50,800 nt of DNA from a virus (taxonomy: Duplodnaviria; Heunggongvirae; Uroviricota; Caudoviricetes). Position 1 is the first letter of the stretch. Each line of letters starts with the position of its first letter. Under the pieces are notes generated by a model. The model was given only the letters and a program-made list of their open reading frames with translations, searched no databases and had not been told where the DNA came from. The stretch lies in IMG/VR virus record IMGVR_UViG_2563366874_000012. One strand, 5' to 3'. Position numbers and translations under genes: made by a program. Shown piece after piece: positions 1,532-45,650 of the stretch.

Positions 1532-1741
1532 TTAATTTGAATACAATGCAATTCTCGAGGACTGAAGTTTCTCGCAATTAAAATTTATCAGTTTTACTTT
1601 CTGCTCTCTGGAAACGCCTGCTTCTTTTTTACCTGAGAGCATTTTTTCGCATTCTGATTTCGTTAGTTTAGATTTTGAATATCTTGTCCAGTTAGTAGGA
1701 GTGCCACCTTCCTTTTCAATAGTGGCGGTAATTTTATACAT
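1532..1741 (-). CDS. ydaC: Small Rac protein YdaC-like
   Basis: 69-aa ORF MYKITATIEKEGGTPTNW...; GGAGGTG Shine-Dalgarno 6 nt upstream of the chosen ATG; overlaps ralR stop. Confidence 0.6.
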   Translation of the reverse strand: MYKITATIEKEGGTPTNWTRYSKSKLTKSECEKMLSGKKEAGVSREQKVKLINFNCEKLQSSRIALYSN

Positions 1742-2794: not shown

Positions 2795-5387
2795 TTGCAT
2801 ATTCCTTAGCCCAGCGGGGCAGTGATAATGTCTTAATAGCTGGCCATTCATCGGTATTCAGGCAGTCAGACAGGGTTCGCAGATTGCGGTGATATTCCTG
2901 TTGACCTGCCAGTTTTGCTTCTTCGCCCATCATGAAAATTTCAACCGGATAACGTCCGCATTCAATAGTTGTGCTGGCAACCAGAAAAACGAAAGTTGGC
3001 TGCACTCCAAACAGTGCTTCATAACCGTCACTGTAGAATGCATCCTGAACGTGATAGCGGTAGTCGTAATAAGCGGTTTTGAATCGTTGAATATCCGCCG
3101 TAGTTTTCACGTCCATGATCCAGTGAAATTCAGGGATAATTTTGTCCGGACGGCACCGACACAAAATTCCTGTTTCAGGATCTTCCCAGTAAATTGATGA
3201 TTCAGCGTGTCCGGCGCTTTCAACAAGCCATTGCCCCAGCGGCAAAGCCATAACGCTTTGATACATGAGTTCAATTTTCCGGCCTTCTTCCGCAGTGATA
3301 ACCGTTTTTCCTGTGCTTGCGCATTCCATCAGAAACGCTTTCTCTTCTTCTTTTCCGGCGTTTGTACGGCGGTTAAATTCAGGTGCTACGATAAAGCGGT
3401 TACTGAATTCTTCCGGTTCAAGTACCCGGCAGTGGAAAGCAGTTCCTAAATCGAGCGTTTTTGTCTTTGTGGTGTCCACGGGGGCATTTTTACGCCACAA
3501 ATATAGTGCCGGAGTATCAGCAATGTCATCGAGCTGAGACTTACTGATACCGGGACCCGCGTGGTAATTCTCATTCGAAATTCCGTAATAAATACCTGGC
3601 TCTATGTCTTCTACGATTACGGGATCTGCGACTTCGCCAGTTTCATCACTGCAATCGTGATGCGGATCGCTGCCAGCATTCTCATTGTGCGGATGTTCAG
3701 CGCCTTCCATTTCCTCCGGATCATTTTCCTTAGCTTCAACCTGACTCTCTTCATCGAATGTTTCCTGGTATGTTGCGTCGCCCATCACCGCACCACAGTC
3801 AGGGCAGTTATCCCCGCCAGTCTGGCCGCAGGCATTGCAGGCTATTTCCGGTTCCTGTTGCACTACTGGCTCAGGTTGATTCATATCTGGGCTGGTTTTT
3901 TCCGTTTCTGGCTGGTTCTGGTACACACAATCGCGAGTCTGGATCCCCTTTACCCATTTCGGATCGTTCGGGTCGCTAATTCCGTCAACAAATTCACCAC
4001 GTGATGCAGCAAGCAATTTATCGGCATCGACAGGATTTTTTGATGGAATGTTTTTCCGGGCTTCATGGAGTTCTGCCCGCAGTTCCTGATATTTCGCATC
4101 AACAGAATTTACCTGTGACTGAGCATCCAGCGGCTGCGTGTCCTGATGATGTTCAGTTGCGTCCGGTTCCATTGTTTCAGCCTCTCCCTGTTCAACTGCC
4201 GTTGTTCCAGATGGTTGCGGTTTTTCTTCATCATCCTGTTTTCCTTCTTCTGTTACTCGCTGCGGCATCGGGGCAGAGGAGCGACTGCAGGCAATATCCA
4301 CGATTTCCGGATCAGGGTTGGCATGATCGGTTTCAGTCAGTACTTTGTTCAGATATTCAGTGACGTGCGCGGGGATGACCTCGATCCCAATTGGTGCTTC
4401 TTTTACGGACGCAACCACGATGGCGCGGGAATAATCCAGCCCGCCAGGCATGGTGATGAATTTGTCGCGGAAAACAGAAAAGGGCGGTTTATTTTCAGCG
4501 ATAATTTCCTCAATGCGTTTAGCGTGTGCCGGATGAAGGTTATAGATGTCCAGATCCATTGAACGGGCCAGTACGCCAGTGGCTACGTCGCGCGCCAGTG
4601 ACGTCAGATCGTGTACGAAACCTTCGCCGCGATCGGTGAGGTTTCCGCCGCCAGCATTAGCACCGGAAGCCGTGCGAGTGATGTGTGAAACACGATTACC
4701 CTTCATCCACTCTTTTGTCAGCAGTCCTCGATCGGTGTAGTCAGCGTTCAGGTATGCTTCGAAAAAAGCAGTTATCAGTCCCAGGTTTGAATTACCAGGA
4801 TTAGGGAAAACTTTGTCAGTGTCACGAACCAGTTTGTGGAGTTCGCGAATTTCCAGCGGGTCGAGCAGGCTGGTTTTGTGGGAAACAGCCAGGGCAGTAA
4901 CAGCCGGTAGTTCTTCAGCCCGAGCAATGTGTAATGCCTGGAGTCCGTCGCGTGAAACGTGCGTTACCGGTTTTTCGCTGCCGTGTTGAGCAAGCCAACG
5001 AATGGGCAGTTCCTGGCCAGAAATTGGGAGTAGCATATTCTCCTCAATCTCAGTCATGTCTTCGCCGTTGACGTTGGTATTGCCTTGATAATGAGCGTTG
5101 TCTGGTGCTGCTCCCGGTTTTAGTTCCCATGTCATGGAGTCTTTGCTGAGTTGATAGCGTTCACTCCAGGTAAAATCGATCTCACCTTCAGCGGGCAGGT
5201 CATTAACGACAGGAAAATTCGTGGCAACAGCTTTAAAATAGCTGCTCAGTTTTTTACCTGACTTAACGATCAGGTAGTCCAGAGTGGCACAGGTCGATTC
5301 AAAATCGTTGCTTGCCCACAGGACGACGTCAGGTTCACCGGATGATTTTTTCGCTTTCCGTAACAGGAAGAGTGGTTTTGTGCTCAT
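2787..5387 (-). CDS. recE: RecE exodeoxyribonuclease VIII
   Basis: 866-aa ORF, same length as Rac RecE; acidic central region and C-terminal nuclease domain; recE-recT operon arrangement. Confidence 0.9.
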
Positions 5388-5488
5388 TGTTTTTTAACCT
5401 CAACTCAGATTAAAATTCGTTTTGTTCAGTGAATGATCTTGCCGGATACACACTGTTCATAGCCTGCGCCATACGCAGGCTATTTCTT

Positions 5489-5764
5489 TCAGATTTCACC
5501 TTTTAATTTCATTGCAATTAGAGTTGCCAGAAATTCGGCTTTTTTTTCTGCGGGCAGATTCTTTCCGATATGCACCAGGCACATTTTTTTGACACCTTCA
5601 TCAAGTGTTTTTACGTTGCCTGATGGACCATCGATATCAACCACAGTGAATGGGGTTTCTTTATTTTCTGTTTTAATTACGTAGCCAATGCGCTTTCCTT
5701 CCAGATTCACCTCGTGAACAATGTCATCGGTAGTTACAACAGTGGCTTCATAATTGGTAATCAT
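5489..5764 (-). CDS. racC: RacC small protein
   Basis: 91-aa product MITNYEATVVTTDDIVHEVNLEGKRIGYVIK...; AAGGAG SD 7 nt upstream of ATG. Confidence 0.75.
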   Translation of the reverse strand: MITNYEATVVTTDDIVHEVNLEGKRIGYVIKTENKETPFTVVDIDGPSGNVKTLDEGVKKMCLVHIGKNLPAEKKAEFLATLIAMKLKGEI

Positions 5765-5838
5765 GTTTTTCTCCTTAATTAAGGTTGAGCGAATACCTGC
5801 CATTTCTGGCATAAATTCAGTTTCGAATAGTCAATTAA

Positions 5839-6009
5839 TTAAAGTTCATGTGCCATCTGGTCTTTTTCGGCACAAGCTTCACTGCAATATTTTCTCGGTT
5901 CGTCTTTTGATAAAATCCCGTGCATGAAGTGAAGCATTCTTTCAATAGCTTTGCTTTCTTCAACGTCTTTTTTGCAAAGGTGGTAAGCACATTTTATTTT
6001 CTTAGTCAT
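5839..6009 (-). CDS. ydaE: Small Cys/His-rich (zinc-binding type) protein YdaE-like
   Basis: 56-aa [59 protein letters not shown]; start overlaps kilR stop by 1 nt (TGATG). Confidence 0.6.
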   Translation of the reverse strand: MTKKIKCAYHLCKKDVEESKAIERMLHFMHGILSKDEPRKYCSEACAEKDQMAHEL

Positions 6010-6230
6010 CACCATGACTCCGCCTTTACAGGTAAACCATCACAACCGAGGAAGACTTTAATCATGCGGTCAGTAATGCATGTTTTTGTGGTCAGGTTAC
6101 GAATATATAGTTTTCGCTTTTTAATATTGTTTGCCGAGGCAATATATGTCCGGCCTTCATGAAGAACATAATCGCCAGGAGTCACACACTGACGTGGTAT
6201 TTCATCAGTTCCGAAGTGATGTGCAATCAT
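6009..6230 (-). CDS. kilR: KilR cell-division inhibitor (FtsZ-targeting kil protein)
   Basis: 73-aa [52 protein letters not shown]...; Rac gene order. Confidence 0.75.
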
Positions 6231-6671
6231 AATTATCTCCATTTTTACAAATGAATTTTGTTGATGCGGTGCCTGGTGCCTCCAGGTGACTGCAACCAGT
6301 TAACAATTACAGTCGGCTTTCCCACCCAAACCAATAAGGACTAACATGACTTTTAACTGTGCCACGTGCGCTTAGCCGCATTCACCGCATCACAAAATTC
6401 ACTTTAAAAAGGGCGGACATCAGCCGAACTTCAAGAAAAAAACTGATGCCGCCAGGACTACACACAGCAATGTCGTTATTTACAACCGGAGGCGCACTCC
6501 CACCATTTAAATTTAACAGACAAGACCGACTCTTTATGGATATCGGAAATGCGCCTTCGTGTTGTGCCCGGTTTTATTTCACCACCTCCGGGCTTCGGTG
6601 GTCTCGGCTATACCCCTACAGCGAGAGCTTGTGTTAACATTTCAATACCCTTACAGTTGAGAGTTATTGAT

Positions 6672-7160
6672 ATGTTGGATGTATTTACTCCATTGTTGAA
6701 ACTTTTTGCTAACGAGCCACTCGAAAGACTTATGTATACGATTATCATTTTTGGTCTCACTCTCTGGCTGATACCGAAAGAGTTTGCTGTCGCATTCAAT
6801 GCTTATACTGAAATACCCTGGCTCTTTCAGATTATCGTTTTTGCCTTTTCTTTCGTGGTCGCTATTTCCTTCTCAAGATTGCGAGCACATATTCAAAAGC
6901 ATTATTCATTGCTACCAGAGCAACGAGTATTGCTTCGTTTATCTGAGAAAGAAATCGCTGTATTTAAAGATTTCCTTAAAACAGGAAATCTTATTATCAC
7001 TTCTCCTTGCCGTAACCCGGTTATGAAAAAATTAGAACGGAAGGGCATCATTCAACATCAGAGTGATAGCGCAAACTGTTCTTATTATCTCGTCACCGAA
7101 AAATACTCCCACTTTATGAAGTTATTCTGGAACAGCAGGAGCAGGCGTTTTAATCGTTAG
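6672..7160 (+). CDS. sieB: Superinfection exclusion protein SieB
   Basis: 162-aa membrane protein MLDVFTPLLKLFANEPLERLMYTIIIFGLTLWLIPKEF...; located between kil and the immunity region. Confidence 0.8.
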   Translation: MLDVFTPLLKLFANEPLERLMYTIIIFGLTLWLIPKEFAVAFNAYTEIPWLFQIIVFAFSFVVAISFSRLRAHIQKHYSLLPEQRVLLRLSEKEIAVFKDFLKTGNLIITSPCRNPVMKKLERKGIIQHQSDSANCSYYLVTEKYSHFMKLFWNSRSRRFNR

Positions 7161-7312
7161 CTTACTGTGTGCTTCTCCAACCATCGTCGTGCGCCAGCTT
7201 CGGTTTTAAACGTTTTGCTTTTGGTATACGTCATGGCAGTGAACGTTCCATCCTGGTTGGGGAACACGCCGCACACCAGGGATTCGTTATTGCCGAGGTC
7301 GATTTTTTGCAT
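7158..7312 (-). pseudogene. ydaF: ydaF-like small ORF split across two frames by a 1-nt length change in a homopolymer run
   Basis: From ATG 7312(-): MQKIDLGNNESLVCGVF, then the frame ends after 9 more codons; the -1 frame continues NQDGTFTAMTYTKSKTFKTEAGARRWLEKHTVS*. Break maps to GGG at 7260-7262 (+ strand). Confidence 0.45.
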
Positions 7313-7322
7313 TTTTCGCACC

Positions 7323-7457
7323 TCACATCTTGTTGTTGCGGATAGAGGCTTCTGCCTGCCAGAGATCCCAGTCGTTGCTGCGTAGAGCCTGTACAGCCTG
7401 GCTGTAAGTGATATCGCAACAATCCATCAAATACTGAACTACTTCGTAATGCACCAT
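7323..7457 (-). CDS. ydaG: Small Rac protein YdaG-like
   Basis: 44-aa ORF MVHYEVVQYLMDCCDITYSQAVQALRSNDWDLWQAEASIRNNKM. Confidence 0.6.
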   Translation of the reverse strand: MVHYEVVQYLMDCCDITYSQAVQALRSNDWDLWQAEASIRNNKM

Positions 7458-7624
7458 CTTATCTCTCCCCTTAACGCCGGGTGGCGGAACTGAAACCTGC
7501 TGCACTGCAAAATCTGAACCCTGCCGTCATGTTCATACGCCTCGGGCTGGCTACTTAACCCCTGACCACTGCCTGGTAACTCGAAGTATTGCCCTGCGTT
7601 CTGTGGGGCGGGGTGGGTTGGTAG

Positions 7625-7690
7625 GTATATGATGTACTTTGTGTTCATTGATGTAAAGTACTTTAAGTACATTTTGTGTGTAAAAAAATG
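7625..7690. promoter_or_regulatory. Operator-like repeat cluster downstream of racR (OL-type region)
   Basis: Repeated GTACTTT / AAGTACA motifs (gatgtactttgtg ... aaagtactttaagtacatttt) resembling the ATGTACT motifs on the other side of racR. Confidence 0.35.
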
Positions 7691-7747
7691 AGATGGGATA
7701 AAGTGAAGCACAAACCCGGAGGGGGGAGCTACCGGATTTATGCTGGT

Positions 7748-8167
7748 TTAAGAGGCTTTTTGTTTTTTCTTTCGTGCTAACTCTTCGTAAATTGCATTGT
7801 ACTTCTGTTTTTTCTCCTCAAGAGTTTTTAAAAGTTCATCTGTCTCACTGTCAGGGAGCTCGTCCAGAAGGTCAATGATGATTTTTTGTCTTGGATTTAA
7901 CTCCTGATAGAAACGTACCTGTCCACTTTCTTCTGTATCCTCTCCCAAAAGATAGGTTGGTGTTGTTCCAATGAGTGTTGCTAATTCCCTTAATTTCTCT
8001 CGGCGAGGAATTGTTTCGCCATTAAACCATTTGCTAACCGCTTTTGGTGTTAATTTCATTCGACGGGCAATTTCTGCCTGCCTTCCATGTTGTTCATAAC
8101 CAGCGTTTTCACAGGCTAGCGCAAGCCTACTGGCGAACTCTTTACGCGCTTTATCTTCATGAACCAT
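7748..8167 (-). CDS. racR: Prophage repressor RacR (CI-like, HTH)
   Basis: 139-aa ORF with N-terminal HTH (ASRLALACENAGYEQHGRQAEIARRMKLTPKAVSKW); divergent from cro-like ydaS. Confidence 0.8.
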   Translation of the reverse strand: MVHEDKARKEFASRLALACENAGYEQHGRQAEIARRMKLTPKAVSKWFNGETIPRREKLRELATLIGTTPTYLLGEDTEESGQVRFYQELNPRQKIIIDLLDELPDSETDELLKTLEEKKQKYNAIYEELARKKKQKAS

Positions 8168-8246
8168 AAGTTCAATGATATTCGCTCTTGAATGTACTGT
8201 CAGTTCTGTTATAGCATGTACTCAAAGTTCACATTGTGAGGGTGAT
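8168..8246. promoter_or_regulatory. Divergent racR/ydaS promoter-operator region
   Basis: 79-bp spacer containing two ATGTACT copies (8192-8198, 8216-8222) and the palindrome TCACATTGTGA (8229-8239) just upstream of the ydaS SD. Confidence 0.5.
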
Positions 8247-8501
8247 ATGAACCAGAAAACACTTGAAGATGTAATCAAAACTGTTCGCGTTTCTGTTGTG
8301 GCCGACGTTTGTGGTGTCAGCCAAAGAGCAATCTACAAATGGATGGATAACGGAAAATTGCCTCGCACAGAATATACCGGCGAAACAAATTACGCTGAAA
8401 AAATCGCTCATGCATCAAACGGATTATTTTCTGCCGATGTAATTTTAACTATTGGCAGAAATAAAACTACTACGAAAAAGCTGATGGGAGTTGATTCATG
8501 A
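8247..8501 (+). CDS. ydaS: Cro-like DNA-binding protein YdaS
   Basis: 84-aa ORF MNQKTLEDVIKTVRVSVVADVCGVSQRAIYKWMDNGKLPR (HTH); GAGGG SD; divergent from repressor. Confidence 0.75.
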   Translation: MNQKTLEDVIKTVRVSVVADVCGVSQRAIYKWMDNGKLPRTEYTGETNYAEKIAHASNGLFSADVILTIGRNKTTTKKLMGVDS

Positions 8502-8920
8502 AAATCAAGCATGAGCACATCGAGTCAGTGTTGTTAGCCCTGGCAGCCGAAAAAGGGCAGGCATGGGTAGCCAATGCCATTACTGAAGAATATCTGCGCC
8601 AGGGGGGCGGCGAATTGCCCCTGGTACCAGGCAAGGACTGGAATAATCAGCAGAACATCTATCACCGTTGGTTAAAAGGTGAAACGGAAGCGCAAAGGGA
8701 AAAAATTCAGAAACTGATCCCTGCAATTCTGGCAATCCTTCCGCGCGAGCTGCGTCACCGACTCTGCATCTTCGATACCCTGGAACGCCGTGCATTACTG
8801 GCGGCGCAGGAAGCGTTAAGTACGGCAATTGATGCGCATGATGATGCAGTCCAGGCCGTTTACCGGAAAGCGCATTTCAGCGGCGGCGGGTCTTCCGACG
8901 ATTCTGTCATTGTTCATTAA
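8498..8920 (+). CDS. ydaT: YdaT-like protein (CII-position, toxic-when-derepressed partner of YdaS)
   Basis: 140-aa ORF MKIKHEHIESVLLALAAEKGQAWVANAITEEYLRQ...; start overlaps ydaS stop (ATGA). Confidence 0.7.
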   Translation: MKIKHEHIESVLLALAAEKGQAWVANAITEEYLRQGGGELPLVPGKDWNNQQNIYHRWLKGETEAQREKIQKLIPAILAILPRELRHRLCIFDTLERRALLAAQEALSTAIDAHDDAVQAVYRKAHFSGGGSSDDSVIVH

Positions 8921-8983
8921 GCAAAAGTTTCCATGCTGTTTGTGCTTATTCTAAGCAACCGGGCAGCATCATACGGGGCAATT

Positions 8984-9790
8984 ATGGCCGCATTACCATA
9001 CATGCAACTGTACATAGCTGATTACCTGGCTGACACCATGCATTTGTCAGCAGAGGAGCATGGTGCGTATTTGTTGCTGATGTTCAATTACTGGCAAACA
9101 GGAAAGCCAATACCTAAAAACAGGCTGGCAAAAATTGCCCGTCTGACTAACGAGCGATGGGCTGATGTTGAACCATCCTTGCAGGAGTTTTTTTGCGATA
9201 ACGGCGAGGAATGGGTGCATCTTCGGATTGAGGAAGATCTGGCATCAGTCAGGGAAAAATTAACCAAAAAATCAGCCGCAGGAAAAGCATCTGTTCAGGC
9301 CAGAAGAAGCAGAAAGGAAGCAGATGTTCAAACAAAACAAGAGAGAAATTTAACAGGTGTTCAAACAGATGTTGAAGTGGTGTTTGAACATGATGTCAAC
9401 ACAAAGGCAACTAATAAAGATACAGATAAAGATCTAAAAACAGATCCCCCCCTAAATCCCCCCCGGGGGAATCGAGGTGTCAAAAAGTTTGACCCTCTGG
9501 ATATTGCTTTGCCGAACTGGATTTCTGTCTCGCTTTGGCGTGAGTGGGTTGAATTTCGCCAGGCATTGCGAAAACCGATTCGAACGGAGCAGGGCGCTAA
9601 CGGGGCGATACGGGAGCTGGAAAAATTCCGCCAGCAGGGTTTTTCACCTGAGCAGGTGATTCGACACAGCATCGCCAATGAATACCAGGGCTTGTTCGCG
9701 CCGAAAGGTGTTCGACCTGAGACGTTACTCCGACAGGTTAACACCGTCTCGTTACCGGATAGTGCGATCCCGCCAGGCTTCAGGGGGTAA
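8984..9790 (+). CDS. ydaU: Replication initiation-type protein YdaU (O-protein position)
   Basis: ORF MAALPYMQLYIADYLADTMHLSAEEHGAYLLLMFNYWQTGKPIP...; the frame is open from 8933, so the start is uncertain; precedes DnaC-like gene. Confidence 0.65.
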   Translation: MAALPYMQLYIADYLADTMHLSAEEHGAYLLLMFNYWQTGKPIPKNRLAKIARLTNERWADVEPSLQEFFCDNGEEWVHLRIEEDLASVREKLTKKSAAGKASVQARRSRKEADVQTKQERNLTGVQTDVEVVFEHDVNTKATNKDTDKDLKTDPPLNPPRGNRGVKKFDPLDIALPNWISVSLWREWVEFRQALRKPIRTEQGANGAIRELEKFRQQGFSPEQVIRHSIANEYQGLFAPKGVRPETLLRQVNTVSLPDSAIPPGFRG

Positions 9791-9796
9791 CTGACC

Positions 9797-10543
9797 ATGA
9801 AAAATATTGCGACAGGCGATGTTCTTGAACGTATCCGCAGACTGGCCCCGTCACATGTAACCGCGCCATTCAAGACGGTAGCGGAGTGGCGCGAGTGGCA
9901 ACTTTCCGAAGGCCAGAAACGTTGTGAGGAGATCAACCGTCAGAATCGTCAGTTGCGGGTGGAAAAAATTCTGAATCGCTCTGGCATCCAGCCATTGCAC
10001 CGCAAATGCTCGTTTTCGAATTACCAGGTGCAGAACGAAGGGCAGCGATACGCGTTGAGTCAGGCGAAATCCATCGCTGATGAACTGATGACCGGGTGTA
10101 CAAATTTTGCGTTCAGCGGAAAACCTGGTACCGGGAAGAACCACTTAGCGGCAGCTATCGGGAATCGCCTGCTGAAAGACGGTCAGACAGTGATTGTGGT
10201 TACCGTGGCTGATGTTATGAGTGCCCTGCACGCCAGCTATGACGATGGGCAGTCAGGCGAAAAATTTTTGCGGGAACTGTGCGAAGTGGATCTGCTGGTT
10301 CTTGATGAAATTGGCATTCAGCGCGAGACGAAAAACGAGCAGGTGGTACTGCACCAGATTGTTGATCGCCGGACAGCGTCGATGCGCAGCGTGGGGATGC
10401 TGACAAACCTGAACTATGAGGCCATGAAAACATTGCTCGGCGAGCGGATTATGGATCGCATGACCATGAACGGCGGGCGATGGGTGAATTTTAACTGGGA
10501 GAGCTGGCGTCCGAATGTCGTCCAGCCAGGAATTGCGAAGTAA
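9797..10543 (+). CDS. ydaV: DnaC-like helicase loader / replication ATPase YdaV
   Basis: 248-aa ORF with Walker [16 protein letters not shown] and Walker [10 protein letters not shown]. Confidence 0.85.
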
Positions 10544-10565
10544 TTTTTACCGGGAGAAAAATTTA

Positions 10566-11327
10566 ATGGAGACTGTTTTTGACGCACTGAAAGCAATGGG
10601 AAAAGCCACATCCATAGAACTTGCTGCGCGACTTGATATCAGTCGTGAAGAAGTGCTGAACGAACTATGGGAACTGAAAAAGGCTGGTTTTGTTGATAAA
10701 AGCGCGTACACCTGGCGTGTGGCTGATAACAACGTTCAGCAGGAACAGCCAGCGCAGGCAGAACTGCCGGAAGAAATCACCACAGCAACAGTAGCGAAAA
10801 TCTCAGAGTGCGATTTAACCGCGACGATTGAACAACGAGGACCACAAACGGCTGATGAGCTGGCTACATTGTTTGGTACCACATCACGCAAAGTGGCTTC
10901 AACGCTGGCAATGGCAATCAGCAAAGGTCGTCTGATTCGCGTAAATCAGGGCGGTAAATTTCGTTACTGCATACCGGGCGATAATTTACCAGCAGAGCCG
11001 AAAGCAGCATCGGTAGCGGAAACTGATGGTAAGGCCTTTCCTCAGACCGCAGGTGTTGCGTTACCAGTACAGGAGGCTGCAACACAGGAAGATATTAAAA
11101 CAGAAACTGTGGCGGACATTGTGCAGTCGCTGCCATCGTTTACTGAAACGCGAGCGGATGACCTGGTTTTACCATCACTGCATATGGCAAACCGCGAACT
11201 GCGTCGGGCGAAAAATCATGTCCAGAAGTGGGAGCGTGTCTGCGCCGCGCTGCGTGAGTTGAACAAGCACAGGGATATTGTACGACAGATTACTGATTCT
11301 TCCCGCCATGTTGCATCGGAAAAGTGA
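10566..11327 (+). CDS. Hypothetical protein, N-terminal winged-helix-like region (possibly YdaW-related)
   Basis: 253-aa [47 protein letters not shown]...; the frame is open from 10515. Confidence 0.5.
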
Positions 11328-13325: not shown

Positions 13326-13847
13326 TGAAAATTCCTCAAGTTGGAGAGTTCTGGAACATTAAGGCGAGGTGGCAGTAATGCACCATCTGTAATCTTTTGA
13401 TACTGACGTAATCGGGCCTGATGTGCAACGCCTTGCAAGTATGTAACTCATTGAAAACGATCATTTTTATCTATTGACATCAAATGGCAAACTGTCATTG
13501 TGCGGCTATGGCAAGTGGCAAATGCTTATAAATCATATGGATATAAATAGTACAGAAAGAGTTGTTTTCTCTAGGATATGAGTATACGCCCAATGCTGAT
13601 TGGTTGAATTTTGTTCTTGTTTTAAAGGGTAAGAGTTTAAAGTGTTGGCAGTGATGTATTGGATAGTTAGAATTGCTGTGGGTGCTTGAGGCTATCTGCC
13701 TCGGGCATGAACACCAAAGGTAGATAGAGAAAAGCCCCAGTTAACATTACGCGTCCTGCAAGACGTTTAACATTAATCTGAGGCCATATCTATGCGACAC
13801 ATAGAGATTAGCCTCTTGCGGACCGAAAGGTCAAGGAGAAGCAGGCT

Positions 13848-13973
13848 ATGAAGCAGCAAAAGGCGATGTTAATCGCCCTGATCGTCATCTGTTTAACCGT
13901 CATAGTGACGGCACTGGTAACGAGGAAAGACCTCTGCGAGGTACGAATCCGAACTGGCAGACGGAGGCTCTGA
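13848..13973 (+). CDS. Hok/Gef-family type I toxin homologue with divergent, short C-terminus (possibly inactive)
   Basis: 41-aa ORF MKQQKAMLIALIVICLTVIVTALVTRKDLCEVRIRTGRRRL*; matches recalled HokD/Gef through ...CEVRIRTG then diverges and stops about 10 codons early; 19-codon upstream ORF ends overlapping the ATG. Confidence 0.55.
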   Translation: MKQQKAMLIALIVICLTVIVTALVTRKDLCEVRIRTGRRRL

Positions 13974-44999: not shown

Positions 45000-45650
45000 C
45001 CGCCTCTCAGAGCGCAGCGGCGGCAAAGAAATCCGAAACTGCAGCGGCATCATCGAAGAACGCGGCGAAAACCTCAGAAACGAATGCAGCTAATAGTGCA
45101 CAGGCGGCAGCGACCTCAAAGACTGCATCGGCAAACTCCGCGACAGCAGCCAAAAAATCAGAAACCAACGCGAAAAACAGTGAGACAGCCGCAAAGACGA
45201 GCGAAACCAACGCAAAGTCCAGCCAGACGGCAGCGAAAACCAGCGAAACGAATGCTAAAGCCAGTGAAACTGCGGCAAAAAACAGCCAGGCTGCAGCAGC
45301 TGAAAGCGAGAGCGCGGCAGCCGGTTCTGCGACTTCAGCAGCTGGATCAGCAACTGCTGCGGCTAACAGCCAGAAAGCTGCGAAGACGAGTGAAACTAAC
45401 GCAAAGTCCAGCCAGACGGCAGCGAAGACCAGCGAAACGAATGCCAAAGCCAGTGAAACTGCGGCGAAAAGCAGTCAGGATGCAGCGGCCCAAAGCGAGA
45501 GTGCCGCAGCCAGTTCTGCAAGCGCGGCGGCTGCTTCTGCCACTGCATCAGCTAACAGTCAAAAAGCAGCAAAAACCAGTGAAACCAACGCAAAGGTGAG
45601 CGAAACAGCGGCTGCGAACTCAGCGAAAGCATCGGCAGCAAGCCAGACGG
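45000..45650 (+). repeat. In-frame tandem repeat region within the tail fibre gene
   Basis: Reiterated AAKTSETNAK(S/A)S(E/Q)TAAK units; about 120-bp near-identical DNA segments around 45213-45330 and 45393-45510. Confidence 0.6.

What the first reader, a model, noticed from the sequence alone, without database searches (positions are those of the whole stretch)
7600..8260. Immunity switch with repeated ATGTACT/GTACTTT operator-like motifs on both sides of racR
racR is divergent from the cro-like ydaS and ydaT pair. The 79-bp divergent region carries two ATGTACT copies 24 bp apart and the palindrome TCACATTGTGA. A second cluster of GTACTTT and AAGTACA motifs lies about 60-120 bp beyond the racR 3' end (7625-7690). 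This resembles an OR plus OL layout. In established Rac biology the repressor is essential because derepressed ydaS and ydaT are toxic, so this switch is probably functional.
Basis: partly seen in the sequence, partly recalled or inferred. Interest (0 to 1): 0.4.

Follow-up and report, generated by a model that had tools for sequence, protein, structure and literature searches.

The report
HK022-type immunity switch in Rac prophage
The repeated motifs are real repressor-binding sites of a phage on/off switch, but they are the well-known phage HK022 type of switch swapped into a Rac prophage, not the RacR/YdaS switch of E. coli K-12, so this is an ordinary though mislabelled feature.

Summary
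The naming does not hold. The window is a Rac prophage 99% identical to K-12 Rac on both sides, but an 868-bp cassette (7624-8491) has been exchanged. It encodes a 139-aa repressor whose DNA-binding domain is 47% identical to phage HK022 CI, and an 84-aa Cro 59% identical to HK022 Cro. Neither is RacR or YdaS. "ATGTACT" and "GTACTTT" are half-sites of the 15-bp HK022 operator TGWAC-N5-GTWCA. Spacings (33/24 and 24 bp) and PR/PL hexamers match the annotated HK022 record. K-12 carries its own TAGGC-N3-GCCTA sites at the same OR and OL positions; the window has none. Half-sites are nearly invariant across 50 haplotypes while operator centres vary. TCACATTGTGA is not conserved. The repressor lacks the LexA-like cleavage domain. 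The identical protein serves live phage Tritos, which was not reported as ciprofloxacin-induced. No binding was tested here. New member of a known kind; low-moderate interest.

The parts
7629..7634 (-). PL -10 hexamer (CATCAT on the minus strand); predicted transcript start near 7622
   Evidence: Promoter scan. The hexamer is identical to the 'pL -10 region' annotated in HK022 record X16093. Function is inferred.
7633..7647 (.). OL1 operator TGTACTTTGTGTTCA; lies in the PL spacer and overlaps the -10
   Evidence: 0 mismatches to TGWAC-N5-GTWCA; 14.9 bits. Aligns with the annotated HK022 oL site. Half-sites are nearly invariant in 50 haplotypes and positions 9-10 are variable.
7652..7657 (-). 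PL -35 hexamer (TTTACA on the minus strand)
   Evidence: Identical to the annotated HK022 pL -35. Invariant in the family alignment.
7657..7671 (.). OL2 operator AGTACTTTAAGTACA, 24 bp from OL1; abuts the PL -35
   Evidence: 18.4 bits. Aligns with the second annotated HK022 oL site. Positions 6-10 are polymorphic and the half-sites are conserved.
7748..8167 (-). 139-aa CI-type repressor: HK022-like HTH domain plus a short helical C-terminal domain, with no S24 peptidase domain
   Evidence: ORF. Pfam HTH_3 only. 47% identical to HK022 CI residues 3-99, E 6e-32. 100% identical to the Tritos 'CI repressor'. AlphaFold2 model, pLDDT 83. 12 synonymous against 1 nonsynonymous variant in 50 haplotypes.
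8160..8174 (.). OR3 operator TGAACCATAAGTTCA; covers the repressor start codon (8165-8167) and the predicted PRM start
   Evidence: Identical in sequence to the annotated HK022 oR site at 3000-3014, which overlaps the cI start. Best matrix score in the window, 21.3 bits. Invariant in 50 haplotypes.
8175..8203 (-). Predicted PRM: -35 CTGACA (8203-8198), 17-nt spacer, -10 TATCAT (8180-8175). The start falls at or next to the A of the ATG, implying a leaderless repressor mRNA.
   Evidence: Promoter scan, 10/12 matches. No Shine-Dalgarno sequence upstream of the ATG. Same geometry in HK022. Leaderless cI and paaR2 are precedents (PMC8630535). Inferred.
8188..8215 (+). Predicted PR: -35 TTGAAT (8188-8193), 16-nt spacer, extended -10 TGtTATAGC (8207-8215)
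   Evidence: Aligns column for column with the annotated HK022 pR -35 and -10. The -10 lacks the final T, so the scan did not call it. Inferred.
8193..8207 (.). OR2 operator TGTACTGTCAGTTCT, in the PR spacer and overlapping the PRM -35
   Evidence: 16.9 bits. Aligns with the HK022 oR site at 3033-3047. It is 33 bp from OR3 and 24 bp from OR1, as in HK022. Invariant in 50 haplotypes.
8217..8231 (.). OR1 operator TGTACTCAAAGTTCA, just downstream of the PR -10, over the PR start
   Evidence: 18.4 bits. Aligns with the HK022 oR site at 3057-3071.
8247..8501 (+). 84-aa HK022-type Cro (not YdaS)
   Evidence: 59% identical to HK022 Cro. No YdaS_toxin Pfam match, whereas K-12 YdaS scores 2.6e-31. Only 6/18 residues shared with YdaS.
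8491..8508 (.). YdaT box TTGATTCATGAAAATCAA over the ydaT start codon; its first base is the right junction of the exchanged cassette
   Evidence: The only perfect match in the window to TTGATT-N6-AATCAA. The K-12 box ATGATTCATGAAAATCAA was footprinted (PMC11879457). Junction.
8498..8920 (+). ydaT, the CII-analogue regulator, shared with K-12 Rac
   Evidence: Pfam YdaT_toxin. PHROG 'CII-like transcriptional activator'. Lies in the block 99.3% identical to K-12.

Best explanation
The region is the immunity module of a lambdoid prophage of HK022 immunity type, sitting in a Rac backbone.

An 868-bp cassette (7624-8491) carries the following, in order:
- OL2 and OL1, overlapping the leftward promoter PL
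- a 139-aa CI-type repressor gene
- OR3, OR2 and OR1, overlapping the divergent promoters PRM and PR
- an HK022-type cro

Proposed mechanism. Steps are inferred unless marked otherwise.
- Repressor dimers bind the 15-bp inverted repeats TGWAC-N5-GTWCA.
- Occupancy of OR1 and OR2 blocks PR, silencing cro, ydaT and the replication genes.
- Occupancy of OL1 and OL2 blocks PL, silencing ydaG, ydaF, kilR, racC, recET and xis/int.
- OR3, centred on the repressor ATG and the predicted leaderless PRM start, gives negative autoregulation at high repressor level.
- Cro is expected to use the same sites with a different order of preference.
- YdaT acts at its box at the cassette's right edge as the CII-like establishment factor, as shown for K-12.
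- The repressor has a short helical C-terminal domain instead of the LexA-like S24 domain. It should therefore not be cleaved with RecA help, so release must come by another, unidentified route.

Shown here: sequence homology, site positions, conservation, and co-variation of the sites with the repressor allele. Not shown here: binding, promoter activity, and essentiality.
For: 1. Homology. The repressor N-terminal domain is 47% identical to HK022 CI (E 6e-32), with a near-identical recognition helix, TPKAVSKWFNGE against TPKAISKWFNGE. Cro is 59% identical to HK022 Cro.

2. Sites. The five sites match the operator and promoter features annotated in HK022 record X16093 in sequence, spacing (33/24 bp at OR, 24 bp at OL) and relation to the -35 and -10 hexamers.

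3. Independent detection. A matrix trained on relatives alone recovers exactly these five sites as the top five in 50.8 kb. Clustering has P about 3e-9.

4. Natural swap experiment. The flanks are 99.0% and 99.3% identical to K-12 Rac and the cassette is unrelated. K-12 has RacR-type TAGGC-N3-GCCTA sites at both the OR and OL positions and no HK022-type site in its cassette. The window has the reverse.

5. Conservation among close relatives. In 50 haplotypes only 1 of 50 half-site columns has two or more minor haplotypes, against 39 of 187 other columns (Fisher P 4e-4). The repressor gene shows 12 synonymous against 1 nonsynonymous variant.

6. Conservation among distant relatives. Relatives at 89%, 65% and 62% identity, and relatives that carry an S24 domain, keep the same OR triplet. 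The short-repressor relatives at 89%, 65% and 62% identity also keep the OL pair.

7. A live phage uses it. The identical repressor belongs to Tritos, which makes virions and plaques. Its repressor gene is transcribed 24-fold over background in the lysogen. The authors did not report induction by ciprofloxacin, and trimethoprim slightly lowered virion production (PMC9928086).

8. K-12 precedent for the leftward operon. Loss of RacR in K-12 de-represses both ydaST and the leftward ydaG-kilR-recET genes (PMC11014345 and bioRxiv 10.64898/2026.09.06.749655).
Against: - No binding, transcription or phenotype data exist for this locus. HK022 operator function is taken from a GenBank annotation and a secondary citation (PMC8053113); the primary HK022 papers were not available.
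- The PR -10 is poor (TATAGC) and polymorphic among haplotypes.
- OR2 is centred at about -33 of the predicted PRM. That position does not fit lambda-style activation, so autoregulation logic is uncertain.
- HK022's OL3 and far-right operator have no counterpart here; the best score in those positions is 3.1 bits.
- How a 139-aa protein achieves the cooperativity or looping of full-length CI is unknown.
- No LexA box or antirepressor was found in the window, so the induction route is open.
Confidence: 0.85

Rival explanations
1. One reading: this is the K-12-type RacR/YdaS switch, and ATGTACT/GTACTTT are RacR operators.
For: The gene order and Rac backbone are the same as K-12, and ydaT and its box are shared.
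Against: The repressor and cro are unrelated to RacR and YdaS beyond a generic HTH. Published RacR operators are TTAGGC-n3-GCCTAA (PMC9638921, PMC5700373) and none occurs in the window. Similarity to K-12 stops exactly at 7623 and resumes at 8492.
Confidence: 0.02
2. The sites are genuine HK022-type operators, but in this strain the switch is a relic. The prophage is grounded, and the repressor is no longer needed or no longer controls anything of consequence.
For: K-12 Rac is defective. The PR -10 is weak and polymorphic. No function was measured for this strain.
Against: The repressor, cro and ydaT reading frames are intact. There is strong purifying selection on the repressor (12 synonymous against 1 nonsynonymous variant) and on the operator half-sites. 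The cassette is present in 1049 of 5426 complete genomes at mostly 95-100% identity. Live phage Tritos uses the same cassette, including the TATAGC -10.
Confidence: 0.1
3. The motif clusters are chance features of AT-rich promoter DNA and have no operator role.
For: Counts of the 7-mers alone over the whole window are not enriched.
Against: Clustering statistics. The matrix trained on other loci ranks these sites as the top five. Position, spacing and half-sites are conserved across 62-89% identical relatives and HK022, while the spacers drift.
Confidence: 0.01

Closest known systems
Immunity region of coliphage HK022 (cI, cro, OR1-3, OL, PR, PL; GenBank X16093)
   Same: The 15-bp operator TGWAC-N5-GTWCA is the same, and OR3 is identical in sequence and overlaps the repressor ATG. 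OR spacing is 33/24 bp and OL spacing 24 bp. PL is TTTACA-17-CATCAT, and the PR -35 and -10 are in the same register. The repressor HTH domain is 47% identical and Cro 59% identical.
   Different: The repressor is 139 aa, with a short helical C-terminal domain in place of the S24 autocleavage and oligomerisation domain. There is no OL3 and no far-right operator. The flanking genes are Rac-type (ydaG/kilR/recET to the left; ydaT as the CII analogue to the right), not nun/cII.
RacR-YdaS-YdaT switch of E. coli K-12 Rac
   Same: Same prophage backbone and integration site (ttcA). Same overall layout: OL/PL, repressor, OR, cro-like gene, ydaT. An operator lies over the repressor ATG. ydaT and the YdaT box are shared, as is the leftward kilR-recET operon.
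   Different: The repressor, the cro and the operator sequence (TAGGC-N3-GCCTA) are all different. The intergenic region is 123 bp in K-12 and 79 bp here.
PaaR2/YdaS/YdaT switch of prophage CP-933P (E. coli O157:H7)
   Same: A short non-S24 repressor, a leaderless repressor mRNA, OR and OL operator sets, and YdaT as the CII analogue with a TTGATT-N6-AATCAA box.
   Different: The CP-933P operators are GTTTAGTAA-type 18-bp palindromes, four at OR. A paaA2-parE2 toxin-antitoxin pair follows that repressor. Sequence relation of the two repressors was not tested here.
Gifsy-type non-cleavable repressors controlled by antirepressors (Salmonella; PMC3121763)
   Same: A small repressor (about 136-150 aa) without the Ala-Gly/Ser-Lys cleavage apparatus in a lambdoid prophage. 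The related phage Tritos was not reported as induced by SOS-inducing drugs.
   Different: No antirepressor gene and no LexA box were found in the window. Homology to GfoR/GtgR was not tested.

Membership tests
HK022-type lambdoid immunity region | Repressor DNA-binding domain homologous to HK022 CI | tested here: met
   BLASTP 47/99 identical, E 6e-32. Recognition helix differs at one conservative position.
HK022-type lambdoid immunity region | Cro homologous to HK022 Cro | tested here: met
   59% identity over the full length.
HK022-type lambdoid immunity region | Three OR operators of type TGWAC-N5-GTWCA, spaced 33 and 24 bp, with OR3 over the cI start codon | tested here: met
   Sites start at 8160, 8193 and 8217, against HK022 3000, 3033 and 3057.
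HK022-type lambdoid immunity region | Two OL operators 24 bp apart bracketing PL (TTTACA / CATCAT) | tested here: met
   Sites start at 7633 and 7657, against HK022 2201 and 2225, with identical hexamers.
HK022-type lambdoid immunity region | LexA-like S24 C-terminal domain (RecA-stimulated autocleavage, cooperativity) | tested here: not met
   No Peptidase_S24 hit. The protein is 139 aa. The model shows only helices after residue 90. Relatives with S24 exist, P0021 and P0034.
HK022-type lambdoid immunity region | Extra operators OL3 and the far-right operator (OFR) | tested here: not met
   Best matrix score in 7672-7760 and 8232-9100 is 3.1 bits, against 9.2 and 18.2 bits for the HK022 candidates.
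HK022-type lambdoid immunity region | Repressor and Cro actually bind these sites and repress PR and PL | not testable with these tools
   Needs EMSA or footprinting and reporter fusions.
K-12 Rac RacR/YdaS switch | Repressor orthologous to RacR | tested here: not met
   12/33 identities, in the HTH only. No DNA similarity between 7624 and 8491.
K-12 Rac RacR/YdaS switch | Operators (T/A)TAGGC-n3-GCCTA(T/A) | tested here: not met
   0 sites with up to 1 mismatch in 50.8 kb. K-12 has 6 sites, with up to 2 mismatches allowed.
K-12 Rac RacR/YdaS switch | Cro-like protein of the YdaS family (PF15943) | tested here: not met
   No hit for the window protein. K-12 YdaS scores 2.6e-31.
K-12 Rac RacR/YdaS switch | YdaT with a YdaT box over its start codon; Rac backbone at ttcA | tested here: met
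   Box at 8491-8508. Flanks 99% identical to K-12. ttcA-intR context.
Gifsy-type repressor/antirepressor induction | Short repressor lacking the autocleavage domain | tested here: met
Gifsy-type repressor/antirepressor induction | LexA-controlled antirepressor gene in the prophage | tested here: inconclusive
   No CTGT-N8-ACAG site and no near-consensus LexA box in the window. The 24 CTG-N10-CAG hits are GC-rich and not LexA-like. Antirepressor genes cannot be recognised by sequence alone.

The most novel reading that the evidence does not exclude
The 139-aa protein is an SOS-blind repressor with HK022 operator specificity.

By domain swap it keeps the HK022-type recognition helix but has lost the cleavage domain. 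Roughly one in five E. coli genomes would then carry a permanent lock with two roles. It would hold down toxic Rac genes (kilR and ydaT). It would also confer cross-immunity against superinfecting HK022-family phages whose own repressors are cleavable. Release would come only through an as yet unidentified antirepressor or by stochastic escape.
Probability: 0.3. Interest if true: 0.45.

Novelty: new member of a known kind. Interest (0 to 1): 0.25.

Why it matters
It corrects an easy annotation error. Position in a Rac prophage does not make a gene racR or ydaS. About 19% of complete E. coli genomes (1049 of 5426) carry this HK022-type cassette, and RefSeq labels its genes only as 'helix-turn-helix' proteins. 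A similar share (1089 of 5426) carry the K-12 RacR type.

RacR findings from K-12 therefore should not be carried over to these strains. This covers operator sequence, cross-talk with C proteins, and the 'toxin-repressor' model. The ydaT and kilR parts may carry over.

The locus is also a clean natural example of modular exchange. The junctions fall at the PL transcript start and at the first base of the YdaT box. It also shows a CI DNA-binding domain re-used with a non-cleavable tail.

Tried and rejected
- **Rfam search.** Searched the whole window at gathering threshold and 7300-8600 at E up to 1. Nothing was found in the switch; only RalA and sok turned up elsewhere.
- **Fold of the PL leader (7458-7625, minus strand).** It is no more stable than shuffled sequence, z +1.6, so no put-like RNA is supported.
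- **LexA boxes.** None found. The CTG-N10-CAG hits are not LexA-like.
- **HK022 OL3 and OFR equivalents.** None found.
- **TCACATTGTGA as an operator or CRP-like site.** Rejected. It is absent from HK022 and from the Salmonella and Raoultella relatives, and it is broken in some close haplotypes. It arises from the end of OR1 running into the cro ribosome-binding site.
- **C-terminal domain alone against phage genomes.** Only Tritos and three vB_EcoS phages matched, which gives no functional clue.
- **PDB sequence search and Foldseek on the model.** Only generic XRE-type HTH matches, with P22 C2 best by sequence (E 0.006). The tail gave no informative match.
- **Primary HK022 operator paper (PMC206910).** Not held. 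HK022 site function therefore rests on the GenBank annotation and on PMC8053113.
- **Terminator between the repressor gene and OL.** The scan called none. How PRM transcripts are kept out of the PL operon is unexplained.

Full report
**What is in the sequence**

- ATGTACT lies at 8192-8198 and 8216-8222, 24 bp apart.
- TCACATTGTGA lies at 8229-8239.
- A 79-bp gap (8168-8246) separates a minus-strand 139-aa ORF (7748-8167) from a plus-strand 84-aa ORF (8247-8501). The latter overlaps ydaT (8498-8920).
- A second GTAC-rich cluster lies at 7632-7672, which is 77-115 bp past the repressor stop.

Repeat finding showed that the 7-mers are the left ends of longer, partly palindromic 15-mers. Whole-window counts of the 7-mers are unremarkable. 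Their placement is not: four of six ATGTACT copies lie within 600 bp (P about 9e-5).

**Identity of the locus**

The window is a Rac prophage at ttcA, with intR, xisR, ralR, recT, recE, racC, kilR, sieB and ydaF to the left and ydaT, ydaU and ydaV to the right. It is 100% identical over the region to E. coli TUM14771.

Against K-12 Rac it is 99.0% identical over 3440-7623 and 99.3% identical over 8492-11015. There is no detectable similarity in between. The exchanged 868 bp contain exactly the second motif cluster, the repressor gene, the divergent region and the cro-like gene.

The repressor shares only 12/33 residues with RacR, in the HTH. The cro-like protein has no YdaS-family signature. 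The names racR and ydaS are therefore positional, not orthologous.

**What the cassette is**

The repressor is 100% identical to the 'CI repressor' of phage Tritos. Its first ~100 residues are 47% identical to HK022 CI (E 6e-32), with recognition helix TPKAVSKWFNGE against TPKAISKWFNGE. The cro-like protein is 59% identical to HK022 Cro.

The HK022 GenBank record X16093 annotates these features:
- Two oL sites, TGTACTTAAAGTTCA and AGTACCAATAGTACA, 24 bp apart.
- Three oR sites, TGAACCATAAGTTCA, TGTACTATCAGTTCC and TGAACCATAAGTTCA, spaced 33 and 24 bp, the first over the cI start.
- The pL and pR hexamers.

The window has the same layout:

| Site | Coordinates | Sequence | Note |
|---|---|---|---|
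| OR2 | 8193-8207 | TGTACTGTCAGTTCT | |
| OR1 | 8217-8231 | TGTACTCAAAGTTCA | |
| OL1 | 7633-7647 | TGTACTTTGTGTTCA | |
| OL2 | 7657-7671 | AGTACTTTAAGTACA | |

The spacings are the same as in HK022. PL has the same hexamers, TTTACA-17-CATCAT. PR is in the same register, TTGAAT-16-TGtTATAGC.

**Is it more than chance?**

- TGWAC-N5-GTWCA with at most one mismatch gives 12 hits against 4.5 expected, and no shuffle out of 100 reached 12.
- Five of those hits lie within 600 bp (Poisson P about 3e-9; scan simulation 7e-5).
- A matrix built only from sites in HK022 and four other loci, without the window, ranks the five window sites first to fifth in 50.8 kb, at 14.9-21.3 bits against 11.0 for the next best.

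**Comparative tests**

*Reciprocal swap.* K-12's cassette has RacR-type TAGGC-N3-GCCTA sites in its intergenic region. It also has two more, 25 bp apart, downstream of racR around a leftward TTGACA-17-TATAGT promoter. It has no HK022-type site in the cassette. The window has five HK022-type sites and no RacR-type site. Operator type at both OR and OL therefore follows the repressor allele in an otherwise 99% identical backbone.

*Close relatives.* 79 IMG/VR loci gave 50 haplotypes.
- Half-site columns are almost invariant: 1 of 50 has two or more minor haplotypes.
- Operator centres vary (8 of 25 columns), as does other non-coding DNA (31 of 162). Fisher P is 4e-4.
- The repressor gene shows 12 synonymous against 1 nonsynonymous variant.

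*Distant relatives.* Repressors at 89%, 65% and 62% identity, and Raoultella and other relatives that carry an S24 domain, all keep the OR triplet at 24/33-bp spacing with the ATG inside OR3. The short-repressor relatives at 89%, 65% and 62% identity also keep an OL pair 24 bp apart.

The TCACATTGTGA palindrome is not kept in HK022 or in the Salmonella and Raoultella relatives, and it is broken in some close haplotypes.

**How it most likely works (inferred)**

- Repressor dimers on OR1 and OR2 occlude PR. OR2 fills the spacer and OR1 covers the start.
- Dimers on OL1 and OL2 occlude PL. OL1 overlaps the -10 and OL2 abuts the -35.
- The best minus-strand promoter is CTGACA-17-TATCAT, 10/12 matches. 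It places the repressor transcript start at or next to the A of the ATG, with no Shine-Dalgarno sequence. That implies a leaderless mRNA, as shown for lambda cI and paaR2 (PMC8630535).
- OR3 is centred on that start and would shut PRM at high repressor level.
- OR2 is centred near -33 of this promoter. That does not fit lambda-style activation, so positive autoregulation is undecided.
- The right junction of the cassette is the first base of a perfect YdaT box, TTGATTCATGAAAATCAA at 8491-8508, over the ydaT ATG. In K-12 this box is footprinted and drives YdaT-dependent repressor expression (PMC11879457).
- In K-12, loss of RacR turns on both ydaST and the leftward ydaG-kilR-recET-xis-int genes. 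This fits a repressor-controlled PL at this position.

**The repressor's tail**

The protein has no Peptidase_S24 domain. An AlphaFold2 model (pLDDT 83) shows a five-helix HTH domain, a weakly predicted linker (about residues 76-90), then helices 92-103 and 106-138. Similarity to S24-type relatives ends near residue 102, just before their cleavage-site region.

At BLAST level the tail is found only in Tritos and three vB_EcoS phages. Structure search gave only generic XRE matches.

Tritos is a live prophage of strain LF82. It forms virions and plaques, and its repressor is transcribed 24-fold over background in the lysogen. The authors name only two other LF82 prophages as ciprofloxacin-induced, and trimethoprim slightly lowered Tritos virion production (PMC9928086). 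This fits a non-cleavable repressor.

No LexA box was found in the window. A Gifsy-like, LexA-controlled antirepressor (PMC3121763) therefore remains only an analogy.

**Differences from HK022**

- There is no S24 domain.
- There are no counterparts of HK022's OL3 or of the operator about 300 bp right of OR (PMC8053113).
- The flanking genes are Rac-type rather than nun/cII.

**Verdict**

The OR-plus-OL reading is right, but the RacR/YdaS identification and the direct transfer of K-12 'essential repressor' biology are not. The feature is a new member of a known kind: an HK022-type immunity module with a short non-cleavable repressor, inserted in Rac. It occurs in 1049 of 5426 complete E. coli genomes, about as often as the K-12 RacR type at 1089, and it is generically annotated there. 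No binding or expression was measured here. EMSA or footprinting, reporter fusions and cross-immunity tests would settle it.

Noticed in passing
L002 4188-4229 (K-12 Rac, downstream of racR): Two RacR-type sites lie 25 bp apart and bracket a near-consensus leftward promoter, TTGACA-17-TATAGT. The sites are TAGGTAATGCCTA at 4192-4204 and TAGGCTATGCCTA at 4217-4229. This would be an OL/PL for K-12 Rac. The RacR papers read here describe only the racR-ydaS intergenic operators.
   Followed up: partly
window 7458-7623: The untranslated leader between PL and ydaG is conserved in 3780 of 5426 complete E. coli genomes, far more than carry either immunity cassette, and is mostly unannotated. It is not more structured than shuffled sequence and has no Rfam match.
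   Followed up: partly
window 7623/7624 and 8491/8492: The junctions of the exchanged cassette fall at the predicted PL transcript start and at the first base of the YdaT box. That base is T here, giving the perfect TTGATT-N6-AATCAA, and A in K-12.
   Followed up: yes
window 8210-8216: The PR -10 (TATAGC) lacks the usual final T. It holds the most polymorphic columns of the OR region among close relatives (TATGGC, TATAGT, TATAAC). It has an upstream TG, which would make it an extended -10.
   Followed up: partly
window 7672-7747: No terminator-like hairpin was called between the repressor stop codon and OL2. How PRM transcripts are stopped before entering the PL operon, which runs in the same direction, is unexplained.
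   Followed up: no
L087 2053-2720; L088 2088-2755: In Salmonella relatives (62-65% identical repressors), a HigB-type toxin gene and an HTH gene sit between the repressor gene and the OL pair, in the position of lambda rexAB. The annotated start of P0015 lies upstream of the ATG inside OR3 and is probably too long.
   Followed up: no
window, whole; e.g. 45270-45558: CTG-N10-CAG occurs 24 times against 10.9 expected, and no shuffle out of 100 reached 24. None looks like a LexA box. Four copies lie in a 290-bp stretch at 45270-45558, which suggests a coding repeat.
   Followed up: no
window 1557-1735 and 13680-13850: Rfam matches above gathering score to the RalA antitoxin sRNA and to the sok antisense RNA. 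The sok match fits the Hok/Gef family gene annotated at the corresponding place in the TUM14771 record.
   Followed up: no
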